IMG/VR virus record: IMGVR_UViG_3300042484_001840
Coordinates: 64,001-128,000 of that record
Strand: one strand, 5' to 3'
Source of the DNA: a virus
DNA: 64,000 bases
Part shown: in pieces, positions 7,948-40,132 of the stretch
Layout of the letters: every line of letters starts with the position of its first letter
Numbering within the stretch: position 1 is the first letter of the stretch
Translations under genes and position numbers: made by a program
Notes under the pieces: generated by a model
Told to the model about the DNA's origin: nothing
The model's database searches: none
The model's input: only the letters and a program-made list of their open reading frames with translations

Positions 7948-8347
7948 CTAAGAAGCCACCCTTGCTGTCATCCGCCACCGTGAGGTTAGAGAACCGCTCA
8001 ATGTGAGCCGAGTCCCGCAGGATTAATTCTAGCGAGTTGTAAACCGTTCCGCTTGGATTTTGTCCCATGTGCCAAGGAGATAGGGCACAGCCCCGTATCG
8101 CATCCTTAACAATGTCCGATCCAAATTGGTTGACTGCCACTGTGATCAACTTCGTCCGCTCGTCGGAGAGGCGGGGCTTCCTACCTTTACCTTGGAAAAA
8201 AGTATCTACATAGGTTTGCCAGACCTGAAGAATGATTGCGGGGCTAACAGGTTGTAGATAGTTAGCGCGCTTCTTCTCGGTGCGGGACTGTTTAGTTGGT
8301 TCATCTAAATCAAATAGACTTGGTTGTTCTGAAATAATTTCAGGCAT
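7940..8347 (-). CDS. Putative replication initiator-like protein (C-terminal domain type)
   Basis: W-x2-Y...AIRG-x3-SPWHMGQN...YNSLELILRD resembles phage initiator C-termini; coupled to the loader-like gene. Confidence 0.45.
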   Translation of the reverse strand: MPEIISEQPSLFDLDEPTKQSRTEKKRANYLQPVSPAIILQVWQTYVDTFFQGKGRKPRLSDERTKLITVAVNQFGSDIVKDAIRGCALSPWHMGQNPSGTVYNSLELILRDSAHIERFSNLTVADDSKGGFLDD

Positions 8348-8801
8348 AATTCTCCCCTTAACTTTAGTAATTCTTAGTTTACCAACAAGGATAAACATAT
8401 ATCAACTTATTCCACGGAATATTTAACAAGAAGAAAAGAACACATTACCCTGGAGTAATACGAAACTTGTTTCGTTTTACGACACCAGTAAAGAGTGCAA
8501 CATAACTAAAGAGAGATTAGGTAAGACCTGGAGGGGGGTCTGGGGGGAACCATCGTCTTTTGCTGTCGTACTTTGGGGTACGCTCAAGCAAGCCCTTCGG
8601 ACTAGAGTATGTTGTTCTGACGGGTATGAGGCCTCGTCGTGTTTGTAAGATACTGACTATAGCGCGAGTCATACGCCACCGTCGCATATAGGACATTTTT
8701 TTTGAAAAAGTTTTGCAACTGTAACATTCGTTGCGTGTTTTAGTGTAATGTAGTTACGCGGGGAATGTTTCGCCCCCTTATATTCACCGCATGGTTGAGG
8801 T

Positions 8802-8843
8802 GGTGGAGGTTAAGTGCGTCATGAGCGTTCTTTAACCTCCACC
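8802..8843 (-). terminator. Stem-loop downstream of the 8853-9323 gene
   Basis: GGTGGAGGTTAA...TTAACCTCCACC inverted repeat. Confidence 0.5.
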
Positions 8844-8852
8844 AACTCCCAC

Positions 8853-9323
8853 TTAGATGATGGGGAGATTGAACTCTCGTCGTTCTACCATGATGCCAAG
8901 AGCGCAGTAGTTCACTAGATCTAAGAATGTATCTTGCATTGCTTCGTGATTAGGCTGTCTTCCGTCACCGTCAAGATTTTCTAAGCGCGCCACTTTGTCG
9001 TGGATGCGTACTAGCAATCCTTGTCGTCCAAAGCGAGTGATTGCATCTGGACCATAATCTTTTTGCTTTGATACAAGAATATTTACACATTCTTTTTTGT
9101 TTAGATCTAGTTCTCTCAATCGCGCTACTTCAATTGCTTCCGCACCAATCTGTGAGAAGAACACACAGGCTTGGATGTTTCCACCTCGTCGGTCGTAGAG
9201 TGATTCAATAAACCCATCTAGATACTTGCGTATCATTGCTGGTGATTTATCTTTCCTCTTTAAGACGAGTGAGAAGATGGCATCAATTGCTGACTCTGCT
9301 GATTCGTTCCATGTTTGTGGCAT
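8853..9323 (-). CDS. Nucleotide-modification-associated domain (Nmad1/DUF1599-like) protein
   Basis: KQKDYG...GLLVRIHDKVARLENL...DTFLDLVNY. Confidence 0.7.
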   Translation of the reverse strand: MPQTWNESAESAIDAIFSLVLKRKDKSPAMIRKYLDGFIESLYDRRGGNIQACVFFSQIGAEAIEVARLRELDLNKKECVNILVSKQKDYGPDAITRFGRQGLLVRIHDKVARLENLDGDGRQPNHEAMQDTFLDLVNYCALGIMVERREFNLPII

Positions 9324-9370
9324 GAATCTATTTTTATCACAGAGTCATACACCACCGTCGTTTGTTGAGA

Positions 9371-9595
9371 TCAGCCCTGCCAGATTTTTTGGTATGACAG
9401 TGGCCACTGAGACACTGGTTCGCATCCCTTGTCAAAGTGATCCTTGAGTGCTTCGTCGGTACCGCATGCGGAGCAGATCTCCGTCTTGTTATCCGCTCGC
9501 GAGATCGCGCCAGGGTATGCGCCTGGTGTTTCATTGTTCGGAATGTGGTTATTCACACAGCGCGGACAGATCTTGTGGACTGTTTTAGTATTCAT
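9371..9595 (-). CDS. Small Zn-finger phage protein
   Basis: CPRC...AISRADNKTEICSACGTDEAL; AGGAG RBS. Confidence 0.65.
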   Translation of the reverse strand: MNTKTVHKICPRCVNNHIPNNETPGAYPGAISRADNKTEICSACGTDEALKDHFDKGCEPVSQWPLSYQKIWQG

Positions 9596-9653
9596 TTTTA
9601 CTCCTAGTTAGTAGATTATTTATTGTTAGTAGATGATTTATTAGATAAGTTTA

Positions 9654-9941
9654 TCAGGACTCTTCAAAGTAGTCAACAATCATTTCAAACTTGAGTGATG
9701 TCAAGTGTGCGATCACTGTGTCGGTTAGGCATATCCAGAGTTCTTGATCCTCAAGGATCTGCTCTCCTAATATTTCTAAATCCAAATCAGTGAGTTCATA
9801 CACAAAGTCATACAGGCTGTTTGGTACTACTGGCTCAAAGTTGTCGTTAACAATGCTTCGTATTAGTTGTGGGGAAAGAACAAGCGCGTTAGACGGTGGT
9901 GTCCGATCCCTCTTCCACCACCGTCGCTTGTTGAGAGTCAC
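9654..9941 (-). CDS. Hypothetical protein
   Basis: Part of an overlapping leftward operon. Confidence 0.5.
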   Translation of the reverse strand: MTLNKRRWWKRDRTPPSNALVLSPQLIRSIVNDNFEPVVPNSLYDFVYELTDLDLEILGEQILEDQELWICLTDTVIAHLTSLKFEMIVDYFEES

Positions 9942-10216
9942 TCTTCTCCGACCCAGCGGGCGAAGATGTCATAACGCTGTTTGCCGTCTTCCGATTGGAT
10001 GTATCGGCAAGTTGTTTCAATGCCGGGGTAAGCAATCTTCAGTCGTGTTGAGAATGTTGGCGATGATGCTCGCTTGAACACTGCCCATGACTTCGGCTTT
10101 TGCTTCAGTTCCTCCACGAATGGGAGATACTTCTTCATTGACTTTTCGGATGTGTCTTTTTTTTCTGTGCTCTTGCTGTGGGAAGGCTTTGGGTCTTCCC
10201 ATTGAATGTCAATCAT
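9938..10216 (-). CDS. Hypothetical protein
   Basis: Start MIDIQW with AAGGA RBS. Confidence 0.55.
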   Translation of the reverse strand: MIDIQWEDPKPSHSKSTEKKDTSEKSMKKYLPFVEELKQKPKSWAVFKRASSPTFSTRLKIAYPGIETTCRYIQSEDGKQRYDIFARWVGEE

Positions 10217-10401
10217 TTCCTTGTTTCCTTGTTCTGTGTAATCCCCATTAACCATGGGGTGTATTGGCTTGCGTACATTGACGCTTCAAAGAATGTTCTG
10301 AAGCGTCTCACTGTATCACTATGAGGAAAGTCTACACACCAATTGCGTGTGTCGCCATCCTTCTGAGTGATTTCTTCGTAGTAAATCGTAACCTTTCTCA
10401 C
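10213..10401 (-). CDS. Hypothetical protein
   Basis: Overlapping operon gene. Confidence 0.5.
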   Translation of the reverse strand: MRKVTIYYEEITQKDGDTRNWCVDFPHSDTVRRFRTFFEASMYASQYTPWLMGITQNKETRK

Positions 10402-10853
10402 TTCACCCCTCTTCCCTTAAACCTGTCGTGGGCTTCACGGATACCTTCCATGAATGAGAGATTGTAGGTTTCCCATAAATCGTCATCGCTCAAAATCCAA
10501 CTACCTGTCTCTTGGAGTTCTTCGTCAGTTGCGATACCAGCAACCCACAGGAGTGCGTCCTTGGTATCGGGGAATAAATCATAAGCACCAATGCCAATCA
10601 CTTCCCGTGCGTTCTCACGAAGCGCAGAGGGAGAGAACAGCATGGCATTGCCGTAGGTGACATCTGCTGGTACAGATGTATTGACAGGGCGACCGAGCCG
10701 TTCGGCAAGTTCGCACACGACACCATCGTCAAAGTAGTCGTCGCCAGTAATGCGAGCCTCGTCGTGGTCGTCAAGGTCGTCCATATCTATGATGACGCAT
10801 TCGCTAGCGTCAATGATTGTCTCAGTTCCTAAGTGAACAATAAACTTTGCCAT
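10398..10853 (-). CDS. Hypothetical acidic protein
   Basis: Start MAKFIV after the conserved ACTACTAACAAAGGA leader. Confidence 0.65.
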   Translation of the reverse strand: MAKFIVHLGTETIIDASECVIIDMDDLDDHDEARITGDDYFDDGVVCELAERLGRPVNTSVPADVTYGNAMLFSPSALRENAREVIGIGAYDLFPDTKDALLWVAGIATDEELQETGSWILSDDDLWETYNLSFMEGIREAHDRFKGRGVK

Positions 10854-10934
10854 AAGTAATCCTTTGTTAGTAGTTGCGTGTGTAATCATTATAGCAGGGT
10901 TATGTAGATTACACAACCCTGCTACTTAGATTTA

Positions 10935-11633
10935 TCAGATTATTTGTTCTGCTCGCTCTTTTATTTTGACTAGAGCGTCGTCAAAGAAATTATAGAACTG
11001 TTCATAACCGTCATCGTCATCAAGGTCAATGTCTCCCGATGGTGATGGCTCTTCGCTTTCGTCAAACATGACATCGCCATCCATGACGACGACATAGCCG
11101 ACATAGCCCATACCCGTTTCGCTGTACGCAACACTAAATGTAAGCGTCGGATACATCTCGGAGATTTTGACGAGGAAACCATTTGAGAATGGACTCCAAG
11201 CAGTGTTGTAGAAAATCTCCAACTGTCCGATTGGGGTAGCAGTTCCTATGGGTGCGTTTGTAATTTCAGTATCGTAGTCGCCCCACTTAGTTCCCCAGTT
11301 ACTATTTGCCCAGTCATACCAGTTGCTGTAGCCAGTCTCGGCTAGAGACTTCTGCCCAGCCTCGTACTTTTCCACTGTGTCTTTGACTAGGTGGTCGTAC
11401 CATTCCTGAGTCATCTTGCCATCGTCCAGCATGACCTTCCAATTTGGGTGAGGTTCAGGGGATGTTGGGGTTGGTGACTGCGTGCCATCTAGAGCACTAG
11501 GCATTGGGACTAATGAGGCAATTTTGACAATTCGGTTGCCATCCTTGTCGGTAGATTGGATATCGTTCCAAAAACGAGATAGTAGGGCATTGTCACCCTT
11601 GACTGTCATAGTGTTATCGCAATGGTTAGGCAT
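10935..11633 (-). CDS. DUF1281/YubB ferredoxin-like domain protein
   Basis: MPNHCDN start, NWYDWANSNWGTKW, YNTAWSP and YSETGMGYVG motifs. Confidence 0.75.
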   Translation of the reverse strand: MPNHCDNTMTVKGDNALLSRFWNDIQSTDKDGNRIVKIASLVPMPSALDGTQSPTPTSPEPHPNWKVMLDDGKMTQEWYDHLVKDTVEKYEAGQKSLAETGYSNWYDWANSNWGTKWGDYDTEITNAPIGTATPIGQLEIFYNTAWSPFSNGFLVKISEMYPTLTFSVAYSETGMGYVGYVVVMDGDVMFDESEEPSPSGDIDLDDDDGYEQFYNFFDDALVKIKERAEQII

Positions 11634-11690
11634 TGTGTGTCCTTTCGGTAGTAGTTGATTGTATAAGTATACACTGTATTTTGTGTAATG

Positions 11691-11987
11691 TCAACACGCA
11701 GAGTTAATAAAATCCTGAGCGAGGACACTAAAATCTTGATTGTCGTGCTTGAAAAATCTTTCCCAATCGCTATCCCCACAAGCAAGCAATACAGCAAGCC
11801 CTGCTAAAGCGACGGGGAGTGAGTCATATGTTTCGGTGTAATCGTTAGCAACGAAGTCTGTCCACCAAAGCGAATACTTGCCATCGTTCTCGTGGAGTTC
11901 TATGCCGATATGGTACTTGTCCACGATGAATGAGTAGAGGGAAATACCGTTCTCATTGTCTGTGCTGAAATCTTTGAAAATCTTCAT
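11691..11987 (-). CDS. Hypothetical protein
   Basis: AAGGAG RBS. Confidence 0.6.
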   Translation of the reverse strand: MKIFKDFSTDNENGISLYSFIVDKYHIGIELHENDGKYSLWWTDFVANDYTETYDSLPVALAGLAVLLACGDSDWERFFKHDNQDFSVLAQDFINSAC

Positions 11988-12295
11988 TTGTAGTTTCTCC
12001 TTAGTGAGTTAGTACGGCTTTTTGCGTCCATTGCTTCTTTGCCCCACAGACTGTGGAGTGTGTAATGTTGGATAAGTAACCCAACAGCCTTCCAGATATC
12101 CTCTGCTGTCCATTCACTGTCGTCGCCCATGTCAGGGTTATCAAAGTCAATGTCGTAGATAAATCCATCTAAAGCAACTTCAGGAGTGCTGACAAGCGTG
12201 TAGTAGTGCTCGTCAATAATCTCAGCGAGTTCGTGAATTGCCCGACTTTCGTTGGCAAGTTCTTCCATCTCTGCGTGCTGTTCCCATGAAATCAT
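11984..12295 (-). CDS. Hypothetical protein
   Basis: Conserved promoter/leader cassette upstream. Confidence 0.6.
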   Translation of the reverse strand: MISWEQHAEMEELANESRAIHELAEIIDEHYYTLVSTPEVALDGFIYDIDFDNPDMGDDSEWTAEDIWKAVGLLIQHYTLHSLWGKEAMDAKSRTNSLRRNYK

Positions 12296-12381
12296 TACTG
12301 TGTCCTTTCGTAGTAGGTATAGGTGTAAGTATACACGCTGAGAAGCAATAAAGCAACCCAGCGTGTAAACTTTTTAAAAAA

Positions 12382-12846
12382 TCACCAAGATGATGAGTAG
12401 TTAAACTCCCAGTCTTCGGGGAGTGTCAGCAACTTCCCAATAGCGTCGGCGGTGTATTGGACATTGCCCATATACCACTCGTCGTATTCTGTGCCCCCAA
12501 AGAAAAAGCCCTCTTGGACTGGCAGGAGTTCGCTAGCGAGAGAGTTGTCAGCGAGAACCTTTTTGCAAATGTCCACGAGTTCCGTTAGTTGGTCTCGTGA
12601 CACATAGGAAGTCTGACAGTTGTCTAAACCGTCTTGACAGTTCTTGACGAACCAGCCGTGAACGGCATTAGCCTTTCGCCAGTAGGCAACCTTAACTTCA
12701 ATAGAAGCAGATGGAAGTTCGTCGCTAACGAAATCGCCAATCTTGGAAAGTTCCATAAGTGACTGATAGAGAGCATTGCTCTCAGGTGTGCTCCACTTCG
12801 TTCCCGAAGCGTATTTGCGTGCGTATAAAAATTGGTCAAGTCCCAT
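12382..12846 (-). CDS. Conserved phage protein (MGLD...YWRKAN family)
   Basis: MGLDQ, YWRKANAVHGWF and GFFFGGTEYDEWY motifs; ends YSSSW. Confidence 0.75.
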   Translation of the reverse strand: MGLDQFLYARKYASGTKWSTPESNALYQSLMELSKIGDFVSDELPSASIEVKVAYWRKANAVHGWFVKNCQDGLDNCQTSYVSRDQLTELVDICKKVLADNSLASELLPVQEGFFFGGTEYDEWYMGNVQYTADAIGKLLTLPEDWEFNYSSSW

Positions 12847-12928
12847 TGTTGTGTCCTTTGTTAGTAGTTGTGTGTGTAATCATTATACAGTATCTGTAGG
12901 GGTTTTGCAACCCCTACAGAAAGATTTA

Positions 12929-13240
12929 TCAGAGTGACCGAAAGTAATAGCCGTCTGTTTCCCAAAAGTCGCCACCTTGGAATAGGTCATGGGCATACTT
13001 GGCGAAATCAAAGTATCGCCAAACTCGCTCGTGAATGCCATCCATAAAGCAACTCTCATAAGCATGGAACTCTCCGAACTCTTTATGCGAGCCGAAGTAC
13101 CCATAATAGGAGTCGGTATAGTCACTGATTTCGCCCTCTGCGTCCTCGGCAGAAATATGGTAATTGAGACAAAACTCAGTGAATGAATTGACATCTAAAC
13201 CGTTGTCCTCGGCAATGCTTTCATAAGTAATGGTGTCCAT
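12929..13240 (-). CDS. ArdA-like acidic antirestriction (DNA mimic) protein, C-terminal domains only
   Basis: Acidic; YYGYF...YFDFAKYAHDLF..GDF...GYYFR resembles the ArdA C-terminus. Confidence 0.6.
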   Translation of the reverse strand: MDTITYESIAEDNGLDVNSFTEFCLNYHISAEDAEGEISDYTDSYYGYFGSHKEFGEFHAYESCFMDGIHERVWRYFDFAKYAHDLFQGGDFWETDGYYFRSL

Positions 13241-13318
13241 AGTAATCCCTTCGTAGTGGTGTTAGATAAGTATAGCAGGTCTGTGTAAGGTTTACAACCT
13301 TATCATCAGATTTCTTTC

Positions 13319-13615
13319 TCAGAGCCGACCACCGTAGTCTCGCTCGTTGTAGTAGCGATTTTCCCACTGTGCTTGCTTTTCAGCATCAGCGATTTCGGTT
13401 TCCAACTCTTCAAAGATTTCCTTCATTGCTTCAATGACGAGTGAGTGGATATCGGCAACAGTGCCGTGGTTTTTAATTCCGATACCGACATTCTGTGCTT
13501 CTCGCACTTCGTCATACCAATTGAAAAGTGCTTGCCACTCTCCAATGTTGCGAGCGTTGTATTCGTCAGCAATAAGTTGCTTGATGACTTCCGTAAAGTT
13601 AGTGGTGGTTTCCAT
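13319..13615 (-). CDS. Hypothetical protein
   Basis: Start METTT after the conserved leader. Confidence 0.6.
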   Translation of the reverse strand: METTTNFTEVIKQLIADEYNARNIGEWQALFNWYDEVREAQNVGIGIKNHGTVADIHSLVIEAMKEIFEELETEIADAEKQAQWENRYYNERDYGGRL

Positions 13616-13777
13616 AGTTGTCCTTTTCCGTAGTAGTGGCTTACCAGATAAGTATAGCAGATATGTGTAACAATTACAACATCTAAATAGATATTTATTA
13701 GATTTTTTTTTGCGCCGTAACCTATAGGACAAGTATAGCAGATGGGTGTAACAATTACAACCTATTTATAGATAAAG

Positions 13778-13810
13778 TTATCCACAAAGTTATCCACAGA
13801 CTTATTCACA
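13778..13810 (+). promoter_or_regulatory. DnaA-box cluster (3 boxes, 12-bp pitch)
   Basis: TTATCCACA at 13778 and 13790; TTATTCACA at 13802. Confidence 0.75.
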
Positions 13811-13940
13811 GGCAAAAAATAGGGGGTCATCCGCCACCGTACGAAAAAGAGACACACAGTCCCGTACCCCAAATCGGGGAGCGGGGCTATCAACCTTCAT
13901 GACAAATTCTGTCAATACTTGCAAGCATTAGCCCCGCAAC

Positions 13941-13954
13941 CGAACTAATGTTCG
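13941..13954. promoter_or_regulatory. LexA (SOS) box
   Basis: CGAAC-TAAT-GTTCG matches the Gram-positive/actinobacterial GAAC-N4-GTTC consensus; ends 4 bp before the ATG at 13959. Confidence 0.7.
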
Positions 13955-13958
13955 TAGC

Positions 13959-14324
13959 ATGATCAACCAGAATAAGTGGACAACCCACATCACAGCACTC
14001 CGCTCATATGCGGAACGAACAGGAACTACGCGAGTCCCGCGGACTCATGTAGAAAATACAGAAACAGGTGAAGTGCGCCTCGGCGCTTGGGTGTCGTATG
14101 TTCGTCACCGCCAGCGCAAGGGACACTTGTCAGTTGTGCAGATTCAGGAACTTGCAACACTCCCGAATTGGCACTACGAACCACTGCCCGCAGGACGGAC
14201 AGGCGACTCTGCCCGTGACGCTCTCATTCAAGCACGGTCTGAAGATGGCGCACGAGTCCGTGAACTCTCACAAGAGTTTGGTCTTACTCGTCAGCGGATT
14301 CATCAAATTATTTCAGCCAAGTGA
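13959..14324 (+). CDS. Helicase-associated (HA) domain plus C-terminal HTH protein
   Basis: W...L..Y...G..RVP..H...LGAWV...R HA motif; VRELSQEFGLTRQRIHQI HTH. Confidence 0.72.
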   Translation: MINQNKWTTHITALRSYAERTGTTRVPRTHVENTETGEVRLGAWVSYVRHRQRKGHLSVVQIQELATLPNWHYEPLPAGRTGDSARDALIQARSEDGARVRELSQEFGLTRQRIHQIISAK

Positions 14325-14608
14325 ACAAGATGAATGAGTCATACGCCGAGTGGCAGAGAGAGTTTAGGAAGTCACAACAGGTGAAGCCGAAGAGTGAGAA
14401 AGTGAAACCAAAAGGTTTCGTACTGTTTCTCGCAATGATCTTCTACTCGCTCATAGTGTCTGTGATTTTTTTCGTTGTCGTCACTCTTGCCCTAAGTATT
14501 GCAGGGTGGTCAGACTTCCTGTCTGCTCGTGAAGTGTTCGGTATATGTTTTGGCATCTCTTCACTCAGGGGACTTGACAGAGTTTTCTACGGTAGGAATC
14601 CTTTTTAG
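14321..14608 (+). CDS. Membrane protein
   Basis: Long hydrophobic segment. Confidence 0.55.
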   Translation: MNKMNESYAEWQREFRKSQQVKPKSEKVKPKGFVLFLAMIFYSLIVSVIFFVVVTLALSIAGWSDFLSAREVFGICFGISSLRGLDRVFYGRNPF

Positions 14609-14615
14609 ATATAGC

Positions 14616-14650
14616 AAAGAGCGGTAGGTGATAAACACCTACCGCTCTTT
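14616..14650. terminator. Bidirectional intrinsic terminator
   Basis: AAAGAGCGGTAGGTG-ATAAA-CACCTACCGCTCTTT perfect stem between convergent genes. Confidence 0.8.
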
Positions 14651-14694
14651 TGTGAAGCAGAGAGGAAAGGACAAGTAACCCTCTGCTAAGAAAG

Positions 14695-16044
14695 TCAGTC
14701 GTCTAAGTTTCGTTCTTTCCAAACTGACGAGTTCTTGATTTCACCAACAGCGTTAGCCTTAAGTCTCTTGCCTTGCTTGACTTGTTTCAATGCCTTGATA
14801 GCACCTTCAACATCATTAACTTGGTGAATACTGTGCTTAATAACAAGGTTCGCACACTCATCAGTCAGGTTGGCAAAGTTATTGTCGCCCTTGCCATCGG
14901 TAACATAACCATCGCAAACCCAAATGAATGGTTCGCCTTGCTTACGCTTGGCTTGTGCGAAACGAATAGCAGGACCATCAACGCCGTTACCGCCGTTGCC
15001 AGTAGGAACTTTCTCAACAACCTTGCCTCGTTCTGCCATTACCCAAACATTCGGGATTTCCTCAGAACCAACTCGGTGAGAGTAACCAATGATTACGCAA
15101 CCGGGCGCTTCCTCAATAATCTCCCACAAGTTTTCTGTTTCCAAACGCATTGAACCTGATTGGTCAATAAGAACAACACCGCCTCGTCCCTTAGCACGAC
15201 GATCAAAAATGCGTCGCTCAGGGTCTGTCAACATTCGTCCAATGCGACGAGGGTTGCGACCAATGTTAGTAGCAACTCTTTTTCGTCCAAGGTTTCCGTC
15301 AACAGCACGAGGCTTTGGAAGTTCTAATTCAATGAGTCTAGCGAACGCACCAGCGCCTGATTTTGCAATGTTCTTGACATCAGGAATTTCCTCGTTACCA
15401 AACTCATCAGGAGTTCCATCGTTACCTTCAGGCTTTAGCAAACTTTCAAGAAGTCGTGCGATAGGAACGGTCAACTTGTTGAAACCTTGCGGTAGACCAT
15501 TCTCATCCGCCACCGTGGAAGCAACAGCAGGTGTTTTTTTCCATATCTTGGCGAGTGCTTTTTGCAATTCTCGTGCTTGCTTCTCAAACTCAGGATTCGT
15601 TGTCTTGAGTCCTCGTAAGAAGTTTGCACCAGCCTTAGTGCCAGCGACAGCAGGAAGGAAACGAACAACTCCGTTCCAATCTCCGTTCTCGCCAATGATT
15701 TTTCCTGTCTGCGATTCAGAACCGTCTGCTAGTGCGTCAATAGGGAAGCCCTGTTTTGCAACCAACATATTCACACGAAACTCCTCTGCCATCATAAGCA
15801 GGTCAGTTTCAATTCCTAGTGCCAGCATTGCTTCAGGATTCGTTGGCGAAACTTTTGCGTGCATAAGTTCGTGAGCACGAACGACACGAGAAGTGTCGTC
15901 AGCGCCGTACGGTACTCGCATTTTTGCCGCTCGCATTTCTGTCCAAGCGTCACCTCGCACGGGGTTGCCCTCTTGGACTTCCCACGCACGAGGCTCAATG
16001 TCACGCCTGTTGATAAATTCGGGCATTGCTTTCATAACCTGCAT
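14695..16044 (-). CDS. vWA-domain protein with N-terminal HExxH metallopeptidase motif (CobT-like MoxR partner)
   Basis: AHELMH; MIDAS motif IDQSGSM; GGN.D and VCDG. Confidence 0.75.
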   Translation of the reverse strand: MQVMKAMPEFINRRDIEPRAWEVQEGNPVRGDAWTEMRAAKMRVPYGADDTSRVVRAHELMHAKVSPTNPEAMLALGIETDLLMMAEEFRVNMLVAKQGFPIDALADGSESQTGKIIGENGDWNGVVRFLPAVAGTKAGANFLRGLKTTNPEFEKQARELQKALAKIWKKTPAVASTVADENGLPQGFNKLTVPIARLLESLLKPEGNDGTPDEFGNEEIPDVKNIAKSGAGAFARLIELELPKPRAVDGNLGRKRVATNIGRNPRRIGRMLTDPERRIFDRRAKGRGGVVLIDQSGSMRLETENLWEIIEEAPGCVIIGYSHRVGSEEIPNVWVMAERGKVVEKVPTGNGGNGVDGPAIRFAQAKRKQGEPFIWVCDGYVTDGKGDNNFANLTDECANLVIKHSIHQVNDVEGAIKALKQVKQGKRLKANAVGEIKNSSVWKERNLDD

Positions 16045-16045
16045 A

Positions 16046-16765: not shown

Positions 16766-16909
16766 AGTTTGTCCTTTGCTAGTAGCGGGTTTTCCCGTGT
16801 TTGATAAGTATACACCCTGTGTGTAGAAATTGCAACTTTATTTCAGAAATTATTTGACATTTTTTTTAGAATGTAGTGGCAGGGAGATTTCCCCCCTGCC
16901 ACTCACTCA

Positions 16910-18330: not shown

Positions 18331-18340
18331 CTTTGACCCG

Positions 18341-30766: not shown

Positions 30767-30874
30767 AATCACCCCACCCGTAGTATTCATTTGATAAACT
30801 ATAGGGGCACAGAAAAACTACTACTTGCTATCGGCGTATGCGCCTGACCTTATCCACCGAACAACGGAGCAAAA

Positions 30875-31426: not shown

Positions 31427-31435
31427 GGAGCAAAA

Positions 31436-31948: not shown

Positions 31949-32078
31949 CCCCATTGTTCTGATAAATCTAACGGAACACAAAAGTGCTGGTCAGAGGCTT
32001 TTTTGTCGTATGACTTGCTTTAGATAAATCCATACGCTAGTATTTCATATAAATCCAAACAGATACTAAGGAGAAATA

Positions 32079-33107: not shown

Positions 33108-33176
33108 CAAACATCAAAAATAGAGTCATAATGGGGTGGGACAAAATAGTCCCGCCCCATTCTATTTGGAGAAAAA

Positions 33177-33542
33177 ATGAACTACGAAGGTATGGACCCT
33201 GACAAACTTCATAAAATAGTTCAATCCGCAATCAACCCGCTTGAGGTTTTTCGGAGGGCTTTCTGCCAACGAGTAGTTGAATCGGTGAACAGCCAATTCG
33301 GTGACGAAGGTTTGTACGACTTACTTCTTGGAATAGATGCAGTGGGCAACTTTGGTTCAGTAGTTGTTATCAACCGAGATGAAATAGATAACTATATGTT
33401 TTCAACATTCGGGACTTTTGACGAGTACATGTACGACAAAATCGTCATGTCAGAAGAATGGGCGGACTTCTTGGGTCATGTTATGGCGGAAGCGGGCGCA
33501 ACCTTAGGTAAAATCATTGACGACGCAATGGATAACGACTAA
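33177..33542 (+). CDS. Hypothetical protein
   Basis: GGAG RBS; 121 aa. Confidence 0.6.
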   Translation: MNYEGMDPDKLHKIVQSAINPLEVFRRAFCQRVVESVNSQFGDEGLYDLLLGIDAVGNFGSVVVINRDEIDNYMFSTFGTFDEYMYDKIVMSEEWADFLGHVMAEAGATLGKIIDDAMDND

Positions 33543-33772
33543 CTCCAGCCGTTGATGGGGTGGAACTCAGCGTAAGCAGTGTTATCTGAGAACGCAGTAA
33601 CTACTAATCCAAGTTCCGTAACGAGAAGGTCTGCGACTTGACCGAAATGGTCCCGCATCACTTCTAAGTCAACATCTTCTCCGCCGTCATTCGCCAAATC
33701 AACGAGCAAATCACGAATGTAGTTTGTGATGAAAAGTTGAGCAGTATGAGTTTCTGAAATTTCTGAATTCAT
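33539..33772 (-). CDS. Hypothetical protein
   Basis: ORF track. Confidence 0.5.
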   Translation of the reverse strand: MNSEISETHTAQLFITNYIRDLLVDLANDGGEDVDLEVMRDHFGQVADLLVTELGLVVTAFSDNTAYAEFHPINGWS

Positions 33773-33843
33773 GTTGACAATCTAGCATGATGCTGGTAAC
33801 CTTGTCGGTAACAACCCCACAGGGGAACACGAGGAGAATACGA

Positions 33844-34305
33844 ATGTCAGCATCACCGACAACACTTACAGGAAACCTTGTTTCAGATCCCGAACTCAAG
33901 TTCTTGGATAATGGAACAGCGAAACTATCAGGCTCAATTGCCGTTGGTCACTATTGGACTGACGCATCGGGCGAAAAGCAAGAAAAGACTTCATTCATTG
34001 ACTTCGTTGCTTGGCGTTACCTTGCCGACGACGCAGCACGAGTGTTGGAAAAGGGCGTTCGTATCATTGTTACGGGTCGCCTTGAACAGCGTTCGTGGGA
34101 ACAAGACGGGGCTAAGCGAAGCAAGGTTGAACTTATCGCTGACGACATCGCAGTCGCAGTGAAGTCAATTGAGTCGTTTGACCGTCGCCGTGCTGGTGAA
34201 AAGGGTGCTGTTGCGCCGAAGCCAGCCGCTGCTAGGCAGGCACAACGCCCTGTACTTAAGGCGACACCAACGCAATCCGTAATGGAAGATGCCGAGCCAT
34301 TCTGA
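33844..34305 (+). CDS. ssb: Single-stranded DNA-binding protein
   Basis: GNLVSDPELKF, KGVRIIVTGRLEQRSW, acidic EPF C-terminus. Confidence 0.92.
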   Translation: MSASPTTLTGNLVSDPELKFLDNGTAKLSGSIAVGHYWTDASGEKQEKTSFIDFVAWRYLADDAARVLEKGVRIIVTGRLEQRSWEQDGAKRSKVELIADDIAVAVKSIESFDRRRAGEKGAVAPKPAAARQAQRPVLKATPTQSVMEDAEPF

Positions 34306-34394
34306 GCGAATTCTCGTTCTTCATAGTGTGTCTACTAGGGACATACGCAGTAGTGAAATTGGTTGATGGTCGGGGCAAGAAATAGCCCCGACCA

Positions 34395-34613
34395 TTACCA
34401 TTTCTGATGTATGAATTCCCACACTTCAACTGGCACAGAGTCCTCGTAGTACGGATCAAGGATTGTACCGATGAGTTCCGAAGCAATGTCGGGTCTGACC
34501 ATCGCAAGGAAGTTTGATATCGCCTGCCCTAGTCGTTGACTCTCCCTATTGCGTTCAAAGTAATCGGTTGAGTTACTAAGGAACTCTATGTAGTTCACTC
34601 TGTCCACTCCCAA
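34395..34613 (-). CDS. Hypothetical phage protein
   Basis: QRLGQA..N.L...RPD...DPYY motif. Confidence 0.55.
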   Translation of the reverse strand: MGVDRVNYIEFLSNSTDYFERNRESQRLGQAISNFLAMVRPDIASELIGTILDPYYEDSVPVEVWEFIHQKW

Positions 34614-34858
34614 GTTCCGTTTTGGTGAAGCGTAGCATTTGACGGAGCGTCACAGTTCTTGATGTCCACGAACATTTGCCCGTCGTTCTCCCAAGTAAAG
34701 TTAGCGTTGAGCACTACTGGGCAGGGATTGTCATTATCGGGGTCTACGATGTCTGCTAGGCGTGTTATACCAAGCATAGAGAATATTCCTAGTCCACCCC
34801 AAAAAGTGAAGCGGACTGCTGTGCGGATAGAGTAGTAGAGTGATGTTTTAGTAGTCAT
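34595..34858 (-). CDS. Membrane-anchored hypothetical protein
   Basis: One TM segment. Confidence 0.5.
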   Translation of the reverse strand: MTTKTSLYYSIRTAVRFTFWGGLGIFSMLGITRLADIVDPDNDNPCPVVLNANFTWENDGQMFVDIKNCDAPSNATLHQNGTWEWTE

Positions 34859-34886
34859 AGTTACATTATACAAAACCTATCCATGA

Positions 34887-35354
34887 ATGTCAAGGATTGT
34901 TATGGCAGATAAGATAAACAAAAAATCAGCACCAAGACAGAAAATCTTAGGGATAGAACGGGAAGGCGCATGGGGAAGGGTTGAGTATCTCCATCGGTTG
35001 GCGTGCGGGCATACCGAGCGACGGAAGCGACCAGCGAAAACTGAGATTATCTCTTGTTCGTGGTGCGTGGTTGCGGAAGAGCAAACGGAAGTTCTACAGA
35101 GTTTCGCCACGAAGAGACCACAAAGCCCCGCTGAAGATGATGTTTTTGACAGAATGGGATCGCTGATTGCTGTTTCGGAAAGAGAAGTTTCCAAACTGAA
35201 GGCAGAAATTGCGTCTAAGTTTGATGTTCCTGTGGACTATGTTGATGTTGTCGTGGAAGACGATGACGGGACTCTTTCGGTTTCGTACGCAATTATCTTC
35301 TTGTCAGCGCAAGACATCAAGAACATTCTCGTGGACTCTAAAGAAAATACTTGA
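34887..35354 (+). CDS. Hypothetical protein
   Basis: 155-aa ORF with LACGH...CSWC. Confidence 0.55.
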   Translation: MSRIVMADKINKKSAPRQKILGIEREGAWGRVEYLHRLACGHTERRKRPAKTEIISCSWCVVAEEQTEVLQSFATKRPQSPAEDDVFDRMGSLIAVSEREVSKLKAEIASKFDVPVDYVDVVVEDDDGTLSVSYAIIFLSAQDIKNILVDSKENT

Positions 35355-35420
35355 CATTCACCCACTCACTCAGTAGACTATGGCTAAAGTTACTACTAAC
35401 AACAACAGAAAGATACAATC

Positions 35421-35837
35421 ATGAAGCGACTTATCCCAATTATCATCGCCACCCTCGCACTTACTGCGTGTGGAACTAAAACCGTGTATGTCACCAGCAC
35501 CGAAGCACCCGACACAACTGTAGAAGTTACCGAGACGACTGATGCGCCAATTGCGACTCCTGCGCCTACAGTCCCGTCTTACACTTCAGAAGATGAATTC
35601 ATCGCAGACATCTACAACGAAAACACTGGTCCCATCTACCTTGAAGACCAAGACCTGATTGACACAGGATATGCGGTTTGTGATGGTTTGCGTAGTGGTA
35701 TGACTGGCTACGATGCACTTGATGCAATTGTCTCATCATCTGAAGGTGATACCGCTGTAGAGGAACTGCTTATCAATGTTACAGCATCGGCGGTTGTGAA
35801 CTTCTGCCCTGAGCAGGCATACAAGTTCGGAGAATGA
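35421..35837 (+). CDS. DUF732-like lipoprotein
   Basis: Lipobox LTAC; G.AVC..L..G...SAVVNFCPE. Confidence 0.75.
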   Translation: MKRLIPIIIATLALTACGTKTVYVTSTEAPDTTVEVTETTDAPIATPAPTVPSYTSEDEFIADIYNENTGPIYLEDQDLIDTGYAVCDGLRSGMTGYDALDAIVSSSEGDTAVEELLINVTASAVVNFCPEQAYKFGE

Positions 35838-35838
35838 T

Positions 35839-36024
35839 ATGACCAATAGAGACACTTACGACATTTTGTCATACGAAGAAGAACAGAAGCAATCAAAAAG
35901 CGGGACTAACATTCAGATCAACACCCTGATTGACGCAATGATTGATGCGGAGAAGTGTTTATTCCGTAACAAAGACGAAAACCTAATGCCTGTCAGTGAA
36001 CAAGAATACAAATTAGGAGAATGA
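35839..36024 (+). CDS. Hypothetical protein
   Basis: Position within the operon. Confidence 0.45.
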   Translation: MTNRDTYDILSYEEEQKQSKSGTNIQINTLIDAMIDAEKCLFRNKDENLMPVSEQEYKLGE

Positions 36025-36025
36025 A

Positions 36026-36457
36026 ATGAAGCGACTCGCCTTAATCGCACTACTAGTCCCGTTACTCGTTTCATGTAGCGCAGCCATGAGCAACGAGACA
36101 ACAACTCTTCAGCCGCTACCAACAACGATCAACATTCCCGTTTTTGACACAATTCCCGCACTAGATGGCAAGCCATACACCGACGAAGAGTTCGCGTTTT
36201 TTGATGATGTAACTTTCTTCTACGGGGCTAGTACCGACTTGAGCGATGAGAAACTTCTTGAGTTGGGAGTTACATGGTGTCAGTTAATGATCGGAGGCAT
36301 GAGTGCCGAAGATGTTATCGGGCGGATCAACGAAGGATCAAGCGATAACGCCGATGCTCTTCTTCACTTCTCTGTTGTAAATGCAGGGATTGAGAACTTA
36401 TGCCCCTCGCAGTGGGATAAAGCGGAGTATATTGCTCTCAATTCGTTCTTGCCGTGA
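36026..36457 (+). CDS. DUF732-like lipoprotein
   Basis: Lipobox LVSC; LG..WC.L..G...AGIENLCP. Confidence 0.7.
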   Translation: MKRLALIALLVPLLVSCSAAMSNETTTLQPLPTTINIPVFDTIPALDGKPYTDEEFAFFDDVTFFYGASTDLSDEKLLELGVTWCQLMIGGMSAEDVIGRINEGSSDNADALLHFSVVNAGIENLCPSQWDKAEYIALNSFLP

Positions 36458-36879
36458 TGTCATACGGGACTATCTGAAAGTGTGAGAAACTTTGTGATGG
36501 GGAAAAAAATGAAATTAGCCTCAGTTGGCATCGCCACAATTACTGTTTCGTATGTTTTTTCAGCACTTCTGTTCATGCTTATTGCCATGACTCTCATGAA
36601 CCCTACGCCTCGTGTTCGGGAGATATTCCTACAGCCCCGCACTACGGGTCGTCGGCGTGGTTCGTTGTCTGACTTCACTTCATAGGTTTTTCGGTGAGTC
36701 TGATGTACGGACTTGCCATCGCCTTCGCATAGGCGCGCGAGTGGCTTAGTCCTTCTTGGTGGCGCTGTAGGACATACTCCATAGAGAACGCCCTACTCCA
36801 CCTATTCGCCTTCATCGTTCTGAGTGTTAGTAGTTGGTAGTTCATTGTTGCCCTCCGTTCTAGGGGAACAGTACAGCGG

Positions 36880-37143
36880 TCACCACCCGCTGTACTGTTC
36901 GTATTCTTCCCGTGTTGGTACTTCGTTCAGCATACGCTGGTAGGACTCAACGCAACTCTCAAAGTCGCTGGTCTCGTGCCAATCTTCTTCGGACTTGCCT
37001 TCGTTGGTCTCTAGCCAAAAGCCGTATGACTCGTGGTAGGAGTCGGTTCCGATGAAACTCTCTGATGCCTCATCGTAAGCGTCTTGCGCTTCGTGCCTGT
37101 CTTGGTATGGCTGTTGTAGCCAAGTGTCGTAGTCAACGCCCAT
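36880..37143 (-). CDS. Acidic hypothetical protein
   Basis: Start MGVDYD after ACTACTACAAAGGAG. Confidence 0.6.
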   Translation of the reverse strand: MGVDYDTWLQQPYQDRHEAQDAYDEASESFIGTDSYHESYGFWLETNEGKSEEDWHETSDFESCVESYQRMLNEVPTREEYEQYSGW

Positions 37144-37317
37144 TGTCTTGCTCCTTTGTAGTAGTTGCTTCCTTATGAATACAAGTATAGCGAGAATGTG
37201 TAAGGTTGTCAACCTTTTGTTGGAAAATATTTAGAAATATATTTTTGGGAAATAGTTGACATTCTCTCACTTATCCCGTATAATGTATCTATACACAAAT
37301 CTACTAAAAGGAAAAAT

Positions 37318-37506
37318 ATGAAAATCTTAGAAATCCCCGAAAACGAAACTATTGAAATCATCTCGGCTAATGTCATAGAGTTTTGGCGAGACGGGCAACT
37401 GATGGGCGATACCCACAAGGGTCTAGCCGATACCATTCGCCTGACGGGTATCAAGGGGCTGACAGTAGTCCTGACCGACAGACTCCCCAACGAGAGCGAG
37501 CGGTGA
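37318..37506 (+). CDS. Hypothetical protein
   Basis: TTGACA-17-TATAAT (37256-37284) and CTACTAAAAGGA leader. Confidence 0.6.
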   Translation: MKILEIPENETIEIISANVIEFWRDGQLMGDTHKGLADTIRLTGIKGLTVVLTDRLPNESER

Positions 37507-37745
37507 CAGCCGCTCGGCAAGCGGGGCTAGTTGAGATACTGGGGTAAAACCCGAACGACCTGAGTATGTCGTAAAACTACTCTTCTTTGCTATCTCCCGA
37601 TAGCCCCGTACTCGCCACGAACTCGGATTTTTTTGTGACGGACTTTTTGCTACTGCCGTTTTTTCATTTCGTGCTTCGGATTTTTTTGTGAAAACTTTTC
37701 GCTACTGCTATTTTTTCAGTACGGGCTTTTATGCAAAAAAAAAAG

Positions 37746-37778
37746 TTATCCACAGGCTGTTGATAAACCTGTGGATAA
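37746..37778. promoter_or_regulatory. DnaA-box cluster (3 boxes)
   Basis: TTATCCACA at 37746, TGTTGATAA at 37758 (1 mismatch), TGTGGATAA at 37770. Confidence 0.7.
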
Positions 37779-37781
37779 CTC

Positions 37782-38090
37782 TCATTGCTGACTCGTGGAA
37801 ACTTTTGTTCTGTTCCGTAACCCAATCATTGCGGACAAATAAAATCCTGCCGCGTGACGCTCCATCTCTGTTTCTCCGCCCCACACGCCGTACTCGTGGT
37901 TTTTCCTGCCGTACTCTCGGCACTCTGCGGATACAGGGCATTGCCGACATATAGCGACCGCTTGTGCTTCACGCTTTACCCGTCTCTCAGGTCGCTCGGC
38001 AACCTTAGGGAAGAATAGGTCTAACTTGCCACTACAAATTCCCAACTTCTGCCATTCGGTATCTAGAGTTTGAGTGTCGTTGTCGGTCAT
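37782..38090 (-). CDS. whiB: WhiB-family transcription factor
   Basis: W...C...LFFP...ICRQCPVSAECREY...YGVWGG. Confidence 0.92.
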   Translation of the reverse strand: MTDNDTQTLDTEWQKLGICSGKLDLFFPKVAERPERRVKREAQAVAICRQCPVSAECREYGRKNHEYGVWGGETEMERHAAGFYLSAMIGLRNRTKVSTSQQ

Positions 38091-38782
38091 ACAAACTCCA
38101 TAATCAGAACTGAGTCGTCTTCCATTGTGTCTCTGCCAAGCACATGAACTTCCGTGCCTTCGCTATTCCATATTGCTCGCACATGATGATGACCGCAAAT
38201 GTGAAAGCGAGGCTTCACCTTCTGCTGGATCTCAAGTACTAACTCTCGCTGGTACACAGATACGGGAATGTCGTCCTTGTATGTGAGTTCAACTCCGTAG
38301 GGTGCGTCATGAGTAATGAGCACATCTACTTCCTCGTCGCTGAGTGTGTCAATATGGTAGGGGCTGATGAGTTCTTGCTTCCACCAAGTACGACCTAGTT
38401 CCCTATCTTTCCAATCCACGCTATACGCTCCGCCATACCCCATAAAGGTATAGCCGTTCATATCAAAGCGACAGCCACGAGGTATCCACTTCACCCATTC
38501 GTTGGGCGTAGGGATAGGTCTAGTGTCTCCGTGCTGAGTGCGTAGGTCGTCTAGTAGGTCGTGGTTCTCGTGGTTGCCATCTATCCACATGAGTGGAATA
38601 TTGTTGGCTTCTGCGAGTGCCACACAGCGTGCTAGGAACTTCTTACCAAAGGGCAAATGTACCCAGTAGCCAAAGTCACCGCAAGCGATAATCGTATTCA
38701 CTTCGTTCTTGTGTGCGTGGGCGTATAGCCATTCAAGGTGCTGAATGTTTCCGTGAATGTCGCCTGCGAATAGTACTTTCAT
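38087..38782 (-). CDS. Metallophosphoesterase
   Basis: GDIHG, GDFG, DGNHE, THDAP and CGHHH motifs. Confidence 0.85.
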   Translation of the reverse strand: MKVLFAGDIHGNIQHLEWLYAHAHKNEVNTIIACGDFGYWVHLPFGKKFLARCVALAEANNIPLMWIDGNHENHDLLDDLRTQHGDTRPIPTPNEWVKWIPRGCRFDMNGYTFMGYGGAYSVDWKDRELGRTWWKQELISPYHIDTLSDEEVDVLITHDAPYGVELTYKDDIPVSVYQRELVLEIQQKVKPRFHICGHHHVRAIWNSEGTEVHVLGRDTMEDDSVLIMEFV

Positions 38783-38877
38783 TATGTTCACCTCCAGGGT
38801 GATTAGTAGTTATGTGTATAGTATATCAGAATTGTATATAGATTACAACCCCGATGAGCGTGTGATTAGTCACACGA

Positions 38878-39183
38878 TTACTTGACATCTCCCCAACCTC
38901 GCCAAGCCTTACCCCAACGAGGCGAGGTAGTGCGTAGGTAGCACGCCCACAAGGGGTGGCGCTCTACGACCATCTCGGGCAAGATGACATGAACGAATAG
39001 GTCTAGTCGCCGTATGAACCTACAAGGCGAACCTAACCTATAGCGAGACACAGGGGCGCTCTCATGAGCCTCCACGAACGCTCTAAGGCTCGTAGGGTCT
39101 ATATCCCAAGGGTCAAGCCCTACTCTGTCTGCGAGTGTGCGTATCAAACTAGTTCGTACCACTTCATGATATGCGGACCACAA
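38878..39183 (-). CDS. Hypothetical protein
   Basis: ORF track. Confidence 0.4.
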   Translation of the reverse strand: MWSAYHEVVRTSLIRTLADRVGLDPWDIDPTSLRAFVEAHESAPVSRYRLGSPCRFIRRLDLFVHVILPEMVVERHPLWACYLRTTSPRWGKAWRGWGDVK

Positions 39184-39410
39184 CCCCCATAGTGGATAGC
39201 CATGATCTCGGCAAGCACTAACTCAAACTCTTTGCCTTGTGAGTAGGTCAAGGTAGGGTCGTTGCCTAGCACTTGCTTGACTCCCTTGTATGTGTCTGCG
39301 ATGAGTTGAGCCTGCCTAAGTGACTCAAGGCGAGGCGTTGTATTCTTTGATACTGCCTTGCTTCTGACGATCTCTCGTACTTGCTCTATGTTGCTGAGTA
39401 GGTCGTTCAT
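39144..39410 (-). CDS. Hypothetical protein
   Basis: ORF track; coupled to the upstream gene. Confidence 0.5.
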   Translation of the reverse strand: MNDLLSNIEQVREIVRSKAVSKNTTPRLESLRQAQLIADTYKGVKQVLGNDPTLTYSQGKEFELVLAEIMAIHYGGCGPHIMKWYELV

Positions 39411-39411
39411 C

Positions 39412-39642
39412 TCATTTCCCCTTCGTTGTTTGTAGTCGTACTCGTGTGCTCGTGACTTTCTTTTGCTCTGTTGCCTTGCGTGTCAAGCGACCCCAACCCC
39501 AACTAGTAGGTGACTTCACTTCGCTTTGCTTTGCCTTGCGTGTCAAGTAAAAGTGTGCGACAAGTGTGTCATTGGGATTGAACTCTGACAGTTCATCTAT
39601 GAGCATTTGTACTGTCATTTTTGATAATGTATTGCGTGTCAT
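39412..39642 (-). CDS. Hypothetical basic protein
   Basis: Start MTRNT after ACTACTACTAAAGGA. Confidence 0.55.
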   Translation of the reverse strand: MTRNTLSKMTVQMLIDELSEFNPNDTLVAHFYLTRKAKQSEVKSPTSWGWGRLTRKATEQKKVTSTRVRLQTTKGK

Positions 39643-39793
39643 GCTTTGTCCTTTAGTAGTAGTGACAAGGTAATCATACACAACTATCAAACAAAAAGCA
39701 ACCTTTATCAAAAGAAATATTTATTATAGTTATGTGACATAATCAACAACTATCATAACAATAATGATTACATATATAGCAATTACATATCAG

Positions 39794-39968
39794 TTATACA
39801 CAACCTGTGGATAAGGTGTGGATAACTTTGTACACAGGCTGTGGGTAACGCTGTGGATAACGATGAGTGCTGTGGATAATGCTGTGTATAACCTGTGTAT
39901 AACCTGTGGATAAAGCGAGGCATCAACTGTGGATAACTAGCACCATCTGTGGACAAAGATGTGGATAA
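39794..39968. repeat. DnaA-box array (13 boxes, mostly co-oriented) next to an AT-rich tract
   Basis: TGTGGATAA/TGTGTATAA/TGTGGACAA at 39806, 39817, 39852, 39871, 39883, 39894, 39905, 39928, 39948 and 39960, plus 39794, 39828 and 39840; AT-rich 39690-39793. Confidence 0.88.
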
Positions 39969-40132
39969 CTGTTGCGAAAATGAGGATGCGGGGCTATTTT
40001 TCAGACGACCTCAGAACAGGGGGGTAGAGACACACACACCATATTGCATTGTTTCCATATAGATTTATCCAAAGTCGTCGTAGTGCACTACCCTTTAATC
40101 TCGGTGTAGTGCACTACTTCAACTTTTCGTGA

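What the first reader, a model, noticed from the sequence alone, without database searches (positions are those of the whole stretch)
8089..39995. CGGGGCT heptamer enriched more than 10-fold and confined to the 8-40 kb region, including inside genes
Seen: at least 43 copies of CGGGGCT/AGCCCCG by manual count. Examples are 8089, 8172, 8239, 13882, 13930, 18239, 18269, 19534, 19612, 20884, 20962, 22705, 22738, 25026, 25087, 25148, 27009, 27067, 27095, 27913, 27943, 37522, 37602 and 39989. A rough random expectation is about 3 in 32 kb, and I noticed none in 1-8 kb or 40-64 kb. In spacers they often form inverted pairs 25-80 bp apart. Seven are embedded in the SNF2 CDS on both strands (28948-30712), implying DNA-level selection. 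Inference: a binding, loading or protection signal marking one genome domain, such as a Chi-like nuclease-attenuation site, an organiser-protein site or a mark on first-injected DNA. I do not recognise it as a known motif.
Basis: partly seen in the sequence, partly recalled or inferred. Interest (0 to 1): 0.8.

Follow-up and report, generated by a model that had tools for sequence, protein, structure and literature searches.

The report
Domain-marking DNA word in lake phages
A large family of lake bacteriophages packs a 7-letter DNA word into one quarter of the genome and has purged it from the rest, which points to an undescribed protein signal that marks that segment, probably the repeated, first-injected end of the viral chromosome.

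Summary
Confirmed and larger than reported. The motif is CGGGRCT: 62 copies at 8011-39995 (43 G, 19 A) and none in the other 102 kb of this ~134-kb actinophage. Both enrichment and absence survive codon-preserving shuffles. All 27 further long relatives searched carry it, clustered in one block of about 25-46 kb; outside the block 1 copy was seen against 77 expected (9 genomes). The block runs from a replication-initiator/helicase-loader gene pair to a conserved boundary element. Sites form divergent pairs at a 24-bp offset with ~10-bp phasing, and are not hairpins. The motif is not Chi, KOPS or a stoperator: it has no polarity and is neutral in the candidate host class. A second, polar GGTGG-containing motif faces the left edge, and length compensation across 18 genomes weakly suggests the block is the terminal redundancy. 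Best guess (0.35): a phage protein cuts or loads recombination machinery at these sites, which is safe only where a second copy exists. The recogniser is unidentified, and read depth could not be tested. The scan had noted this only on this genome; I found no paper on it.

The parts
8011..39995 (.). The marked domain: 62 CGGGRCT sites (43 G, 19 A) on both strands, 32.0 kb
   Evidence: none in the other 101.6 kb of the unit genome
8011..8289 (.). Left-edge cluster of 5 sites (8011-, 8089-, 8172+, 8239+, 8283+), inside the initiator-like gene here but upstream of it in most relatives
7940..8398 (-). Replication-initiator-like gene (short, C-terminal-domain type); marks the left edge in every relative whose fetched DNA covers it
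   Evidence: phrog_16167 E=1.3e-10
7459..7947 (-). G39P-like helicase loader gene
   Evidence: phrog_2289 E=1.5e-6; PF11417 below cut-off
13858..13888 (.). Canonical divergent pair AGYCCCG-N17-CGGGRCT (offset 24); others at 19534/19558 and 24119/24143. Wider divergent pairs: 22705/22738, 18186/18239, 25026/25087, 20884/20962
28839..36639 (.). Densest zone: 28 mostly single sites about every 280 bp through the SNF2, SLT-like, DUF932 and SSB genes, both orientations
7974..26986 (-). Second, polar motif (top strand RCCACCGT, bottom strand ACGGTGGY) at 7974, 8675, 9351, 9917, 13833, 15509, 18210, 20933, 25001, 26979; candidate Chi facing the left edge
   Evidence: GGTGG is the most strand-skewed 5-mer in G030
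39989..40072 (+). Right boundary element: lone last site, T-run, G-run, then GATTTATCC at 40062-40070; same layout in relatives
13778..39968 (.). DnaA-box arrays beside site clusters (13778-13810, 18299-18330, 19480-19523, 26655-26950, 27115-27147, 27871, 37746-37778, 39794-39968); lineage-specific
13959..14324 (+). HA-domain + sigma4-like HTH gene, with a site cluster and a LexA box (13941) upstream; candidate recogniser, but not found in two site-bearing relatives
28859..30766 (+). SNF2 helicase carrying 8 sites; LexA-box array upstream (28637-28772)
32079..34305 (+). DUF932 gene (32079-33107), 121-aa gene and SSB (33844-34305), with 6 sites

Best explanation
SHOWN: CGGGRCT is a double-stranded-DNA recognition site. 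It is gained inside one bounded block and purged everywhere else, across a family of 130-170-kb freshwater actinophages in which no DNA polymerase was found. Its reader prefers two sites back to back on one helix face (17-bp spacer). INFERRED (about 0.55): the block is the long terminal redundancy of the virion DNA, entering left edge first. The two copies of the block then recombine to circularise the genome and start replication. Sites help where a second copy exists and are lethal in single-copy DNA, hence enrichment plus graded avoidance. The same activity would hit the host chromosome about every 3 kb.
For: Outside the block 1 vs 77 expected, and the core 6-mer 49 vs 315, while the other 6-mer neighbours tested sit at 0.9-1.4; CGGGGC and CGGGAC are the two most depleted 6-mers across 9 genomes. 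The motif is shared by lineages with different restriction-site avoidance, neutral in candidate hosts, and shows lineage shifts to A-only or G-only use, with avoidance weaker for the unused variant in G450. Divergent pairs: 63 of 146 at offsets 23-26, longer offsets phased at 9.5-10 bp; 23 of 37 pairs mix G and A variants, so no stem is needed. Terminal-redundancy signs: regression of unique length on block length has slope -1.96 +/- 0.31 (n=18; -2 predicted, p=0.008 against -1); polar GGTGG-type motif 73:6 and crowded at the left edge; conserved right boundary element; early, small-gene and recombination content. Rad52-like, PD-(D/E)XK, RuvC and HNH genes are core. Terminal redundancy is needed for recircularisation in SPP1 (PMC6316719); cutting of both terminal repeats was proposed for T5 (bioRxiv 10.1101/866236).
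Against: No physical ends were measured. The length slope weakens to -1.6 (p=0.07) on closed genomes, -1.8 (p=0.15) without two genomes, and -1.7 (p=0.11) with another boundary choice; genomes are related and boundaries were set after the fact. Sums still range 162-173 and 184-205 kb. No site-specific nuclease or recombinase was identified (no tyrosine integrase). A cutter would have to be switched off once one copy remains. 40-60 sites are far more than circularisation needs. Site density peaks mid-block, not at an end. Depletion of CGGGRC[ACG] inside the block (46 vs 133) is unexplained.
Confidence: 0.35

Rival explanations
1. Domain silencer or organiser: a phage protein binds the pairs, spreads or bridges, and shuts down or compacts the early block after the early phase, binding host DNA too. 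Middle and late genes must avoid the site.
For: Explains 40-60 sites, even coverage through CDSs, orientation independence and avoidance without lethal cutting. A site cluster lies upstream of the HA-HTH gene in most of the genomes that have it.
Against: About 22 of 26 intergenic sites lie at gene 3' ends or between convergent genes, not on promoters (hand count). HA-HTH was not found in G450 or in the G312 block. Primase and the TerS-like gene lie inside the block in G315 and the SSB is often inside. It does not predict the length slope.
Confidence: 0.25
2. Iterons of a distributed origin: the initiator and loader bind the phased pairs beside DnaA boxes and load helicase, so replication starts only in the block.
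For: No PolA, PolB or DnaE found. The initiator/loader pair sits at the left edge, with 5 sites in the initiator gene here, as oriL lies in SPP1 gene 38. DnaA arrays adjoin site clusters and pairs sit in islands between terminators. Composition flips from AC-rich to GT-rich at the last site in 5 genomes.
Against: DnaA arrays are absent in many lineages. Single sites every 300 bp in genes and avoidance of the 6-mer are not iteron features. The initiator is short and has no recognisable N-terminal DNA-binding domain.
Confidence: 0.15
3. Packaging sites: terminase small subunit or HNH reads the motif, so genome ends are cut only within the block.
For: Conserved boundary element; TerL is related to the psiM2 and Gordonia phage Gray terminases; core HNH and TerS-like HTH.
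Against: The TerS-like recognition helix is highly variable across genomes that share the motif. Density does not fall away from one end. Gray shows no clustering.
Confidence: 0.1
4. Site for a conserved host protein (Chi, KOPS, nucleoid protein or defence enzyme) that the first-injected DNA recruits or titrates.
For: The block carries other host-factor sites (DnaA, LexA). A host reader would act before any phage protein is made.
Against: Observed/expected about 1.0-1.3, no strand skew and no pairs in G030; pairs at background in 151 class genomes; no genome in 301 showed clear over-representation. The true host is not identified, so this is not excluded.
Confidence: 0.1
5. By-product of repeated cassette ends, terminator hairpins or composition.
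For: Many pairs lie next to terminators in repeated cassette junctions.
Against: Half the sites are in CDSs, made independently by synonymous changes; mixed pairs break the stem; avoidance outside cannot arise this way.
Confidence: 0.02

Closest known systems
Stoperators of cluster A mycobacteriophages (PMC6550527)
   Same: Many short asymmetric sites in an actinophage genome, inside and between genes, mostly not at promoters.
   Different: Stoperators are 13 bp, genome-wide, oriented with transcription and tied to a temperate repressor. Here: 7 bp, one block, sense:antisense about 15:14, phased divergent pairs, exclusion elsewhere, no integrase found.
matS/MatP Ter macrodomain; Noc and SlmA sites (own knowledge)
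   Same: A short site enriched in one domain and absent from the rest defines a chromosomal region.
   Different: Those are palindromic 12-14-bp host sites at one per tens of kb. This is an asymmetric heptamer at one per 0.5 kb in a phage, with no homologue of the readers identified.
Chi and KOPS (own knowledge)
   Same: Short, G-rich, asymmetric, selected inside coding sequence with positional turnover.
   Different: Not polar, not over-represented or skewed in the candidate host class, and avoided outside the block. The separate GGTGG-containing motif fits Chi better.
T5 first-step-transfer region and terminal repeat (bioRxiv 10.1101/866236)
   Same: Small early genes, DnaA-box arrays in non-coding DNA; a proposed phage nuclease cutting both repeats to circularise.
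   Different: T5's repeat is about 8% of the genome with one proposed cut site, and that model is a hypothesis; no dispersed heptamer is described.
SPP1 gp38/gp39 with oriL and oriR (PMC6316719); iteron plasmid origins (own knowledge)
   Same: Initiator plus G39P-like loader, repeats inside the initiator gene, host replisome, annealase/exonuclease/resolvase set, DnaA boxes beside repeats.
   Different: SPP1 repeats are confined to two origins; here there are 62 sites over 32 kb and avoidance elsewhere.
Gordonia phage Gray/GMA6 and Brevibacterium phage Cantare (closest cultured phages)
   Same: Capsid about 49-50% and TerL 41-43% identical; Gray has a contractile tail.
   Different: Gray is 89 kb, encodes DnaE, and its 16 CGGGRCT are scattered.

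Membership tests
Stoperators | Oriented with transcription | tested here: not met
   In-gene sites about 15 sense: 14 antisense (positions, genes)
Stoperators | Spread through the whole genome | tested here: not met
   0 outside the block
Stoperators | Bound by a phage repressor that blocks elongation | not testable with these tools
   needs EMSA and transcription assays
Chi | Over-represented and leading-strand skewed in the host chromosome | tested here: not met
   G030 O/E 1.0-1.3; CGGGRC 199:225, CGGGRCT 51:33. Host assignment is only to class level
Chi | Polar toward a DNA end | tested here: not met
   30 plus: 32 minus in the window
Chi | Attenuates RecBCD/AddAB/AdnAB | not testable with these tools
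   biochemistry needed
KOPS | Replichore polarity in the host | tested here: not met
   strands mixed along the single-contig G030
matS-type domain marker | Restricted to one domain and absent elsewhere | tested here: met
matS-type domain marker | Palindromic site bound by a host MatP/Noc/SlmA-type protein | tested here: not met
   site is asymmetric; not enriched in host-class genomes
Iteron origin | Initiator gene adjacent; repeats phased; DnaA boxes nearby | tested here: inconclusive
   met at the left edge and in some lineages, absent in others
Iteron origin | Repeats confined to a short origin | tested here: not met
   spread over 32 kb
Long terminal repeat (T5/SPO1 type) | Two copies in virion DNA: double read depth, fixed ends | not tested
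Hairpin/terminator or attC-type folded site | Arms keep base-pairing | tested here: not met
   18 of 37 pairs put C opposite A
Ordinary restriction-site avoidance | Depleted genome-wide and varying with host | tested here: not met
   9-13-fold enriched in the block; shared by lineages with different avoided palindromes

The most novel reading that the evidence does not exclude
These phages carry a chromosome-like domain system: a phage protein reads one heptamer that tags the ~25% terminally redundant, first-injected segment for controlled cutting or machinery loading. The tag is forbidden in single-copy DNA, and the same word makes the host chromosome a target. The segment is bounded by the initiator operon and a conserved boundary element.
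Probability: 0.35. Interest if true: 0.9.

Novelty: categorically new. Interest (0 to 1): 0.8.

Why it matters
Domain-defining DNA words with an exclusion zone are known from bacterial chromosomes; I found none described for a phage genome. This one is conserved across a large uncultured family of lake phages. If the block is the terminal redundancy, the motif predicts genome ends and first-injected anti-defence genes from sequence alone. It would also offer a test of the long-standing question of how phages with long terminal repeats protect, join and shut off their first-injected DNA.

Tried and rejected
I did not try read laying with run ids from other tools. (2) Apparent all-plus polarity in host genomes was a listing artefact; one search showed mixed strands. 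(3) The first skew test on G030 assumed two clean replichores; it was redone by local GC skew, which itself favours G-rich words. (4) 'Unit + block = constant' looked exact in five genomes and loosened with more; only the regression is reported, with its sensitivity. (5) Contig counts of in-block vs outside proteins were equal (median about 6-7 vs 6); clusters were larger inside but this is confounded. (6) Contig ends were not informative. (7) HA-HTH as reader: invariant recognition helix, confident model (pLDDT 87), no PDB match at E<=0.001, not found in G450 or the G312 block. The TerS-like helix is too variable; no residue tracked A-only vs G-only use by eye. (8) L006 (SNF2 80% identical) has no sites, but only 5.3 kb exists and its gene context differs. 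(9) Literature: CGGGGCT gave three unrelated papers; three other searches gave none. The library is incomplete. (10) No earlier scan notes on other genomes.
Full report
OBSERVATION. The 43 CGGGGCT copies are real and at the stated coordinates. The window is part of a 145-kb record whose first and last 11.3 kb overlap at 99.6%, probably an assembly overlap, so the unit genome is about 133.7 kb. No copy occurs outside window 8089-39995 in the whole genome. A scan of single-base variants showed a second form, CGGGACT, with 19 copies in the same block and none outside. The motif is CGGGRCT, 62 copies, against 8.6 +/- 2.7 in dinucleotide shuffles. Codon-preserving shuffles give 34 vs 4.2 inside and 0 vs 8.3 outside; the core CGGGRC is 3 vs 29.5 outside. 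In SNF2 orthologues the sites fall in all three frames and on both strands, arise by synonymous choice and move between lineages.

THE PHAGE. WhiB genes, an SSB whose best bacterial matches (7 of the top 9 genomes) fall in one actinobacterial class, and metagenome sources that I recognise as freshwater (own knowledge) point to a lake actinophage. That class includes ~1-Mb genomes with very few G+C-rich words, so I infer Acidimicrobiia; the host itself is not identified. The closest cultured phages are Gordonia phage Gray and its relatives (capsid about 49%, TerL 43%). No PolA or tyrosine integrase was found in this genome, and no PolB or DnaE in it or four complete relatives. Rad52-like, exonuclease, RuvC, HNH and primase-helicase genes are core.

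FAMILY-WIDE DOMAIN. The motif is present in 74 of 77 SNF2 loci and in all 27 further long records searched; where positions were listed it is clustered in one block. Where the fetched DNA covers it, the block begins at an initiator-like gene and G39P-like loader and ends 25-46 kb away (mostly 28-37 kb) at a lone site followed by a conserved element ending in RTTTATCY. Gene content between the edges varies. Some lineages use only the G form and others only the A form. Outside the block, nine genomes hold 1 CGGGRCT against 77 expected and 49 CGGGRC against 315. Because block limits were drawn around the sites, the non-T variants are the independent check: 48 vs 238 outside, with most other one-mismatch neighbours near 1. 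These lineages avoid different palindromes, so this is not ordinary restriction avoidance. Gray shows no clustering.

GEOMETRY. Of 209 site pairs within 130 bp, 146 are back to back; 63 of these have offsets of 23-26, with a peak at 24. Longer offsets are phased at 9.5-10 bp (R=0.44, n=59, not independent). Of 37 canonical pairs, 23 mix the G and A forms and 18 would put C opposite A, so the pairs are read as duplex DNA and not as hairpins. Intergenic sites lie mostly at gene 3' ends or between convergent genes; in-gene sites are about 15 sense to 14 antisense.

HOST OR PHAGE READER. In a closed host-class genome (G030, 400 kb sampled) the motif is at expectation, unskewed and unpaired. Pairs are at background in 151 class genomes. 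With the lineage shifts in the R base, this favours a phage reader (inference).

WHAT THE BLOCK IS. A second motif, top-strand CCRCCACCG, is polar inside the block (73:6), crowded at the left edge (39, 18, 16, 0, 0 by fifths) and often 20-140 bp left of a site. Its GGTGG core is the most strand-skewed 5-mer in G030 (561:248). By analogy with E. coli Chi polarity (own knowledge), it faces a DNA end at the left edge. If the block is packaged twice, unique length should fall 2 kb per kb of block. The fitted slope is -1.96 +/- 0.31 over 18 genomes, but it is not significant against -1 in three sensitivity runs. The block holds strong-promoter cassettes of small genes plus DUF932, SSB, AAA and SNF2 genes. 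I put terminal redundancy at about 0.55. The direct test was unavailable.

MECHANISM. A signal that is useful in one block and purged elsewhere, with graded avoidance of near-matches, suggests an action that is harmful in single-copy DNA. My best reading (0.35) is cutting or nicking, or loading of recombination and replication-restart proteins, so that the two copies of the block join. SPP1 needs terminal redundancy to recircularise (PMC6316719), and a repeat-cutting model was proposed, untested, for T5. Rivals are a spreading silencer or organiser (0.25), distributed iterons (0.15), packaging sites (0.10) and a host reader (0.10). Unexplained: why so many sites, why density peaks mid-block, why near-matches are depleted inside the block, and why left-G/right-A pairs dominate.

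COMPARISON AND VERDICT. It works most like a matS-type domain marker or stoperators, but fails membership tests for stoperators (PMC6550527), Chi, KOPS, matS, iteron origins, hairpins and restriction avoidance. I found no description in the held literature and no scan note on another genome. The feature is solid and family-wide, and the mechanism is open. Interest 0.8.

Noticed in passing
G000, G318, G324, G327, G328 (whole genomes): 130-160-kb phages with ribonucleotide reductase and primase-helicase but no detectable PolB or DnaE (and no PolA or tyrosine integrase in G000); unusual at this size and implies use of the host replisome.
   Followed up: partly
window 7974-26986 and relatives: Polar motif, full form about CTCTTCCRCCACCGTCA, facing the left edge; candidate Chi of an actinobacterial class for which I know of no described Chi. 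Absent in G315.
   Followed up: partly
L042 4200-12200; G328 51800-56000: Lineages without DnaA arrays carry dense arrays of another word (GTTATCTACTCTC or ACTTATCTATT), 30-60 copies in the block.
   Followed up: no
whole genome: No ACGT or AGCT, one TCGA, no GGCGCC, GACGCC, GAGCCC or GGATCC; GGCC and CCGG about 10-fold down. Relatives avoid other sets. AGTCTA is depleted outside the block in 9 of 9 genomes.
   Followed up: no
G323 56990, G324 119096, G325 65085, G004 21491, L146 15771: Composition flips from A+C-rich to G+T-rich (keto skew down to -0.5 and up to +0.56) exactly at the last site.
   Followed up: partly
L002 5308-7855 (genome 24308-26855): Core PAPS-reductase-like gene flanked by two ParB_N genes; possible DNA-modification module.
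   Followed up: no
window 13941-13954 and 28637-28772: LexA boxes at the HA-HTH and SNF2 genes; boxes near HA-HTH also in G324, G325 and G328, in a phage with no integrase found.
   Followed up: partly
window 16910-17308: Conserved 132-aa gene that resembles Gam/Gp157-type end-binding proteins by eye; no PHROG hit.
   Followed up: no
protein P0053: The same SSB occurs on a 147.5-kb and a 196.4-kb contig; the longer one could be a unit genome plus redundancy or an artefact. It could not be fetched.
   Followed up: partly
G449 121-141 kb: Here the sites are mostly on one strand (17:3), unlike other relatives.
   Followed up: no
G009 24735-27320; L042 12136-12726: Genes resembling a dTDP-rhamnose (rml) cluster, and a ParA/MinD-like gene inside the block of that lineage (by eye).
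   Followed up: no
genome 1-11341 and 133702-145042: 11.3-kb end repeat at 99.6% identity over tail-fibre-like genes; probably an assembly overlap and not a real terminal repeat.
   Followed up: partly
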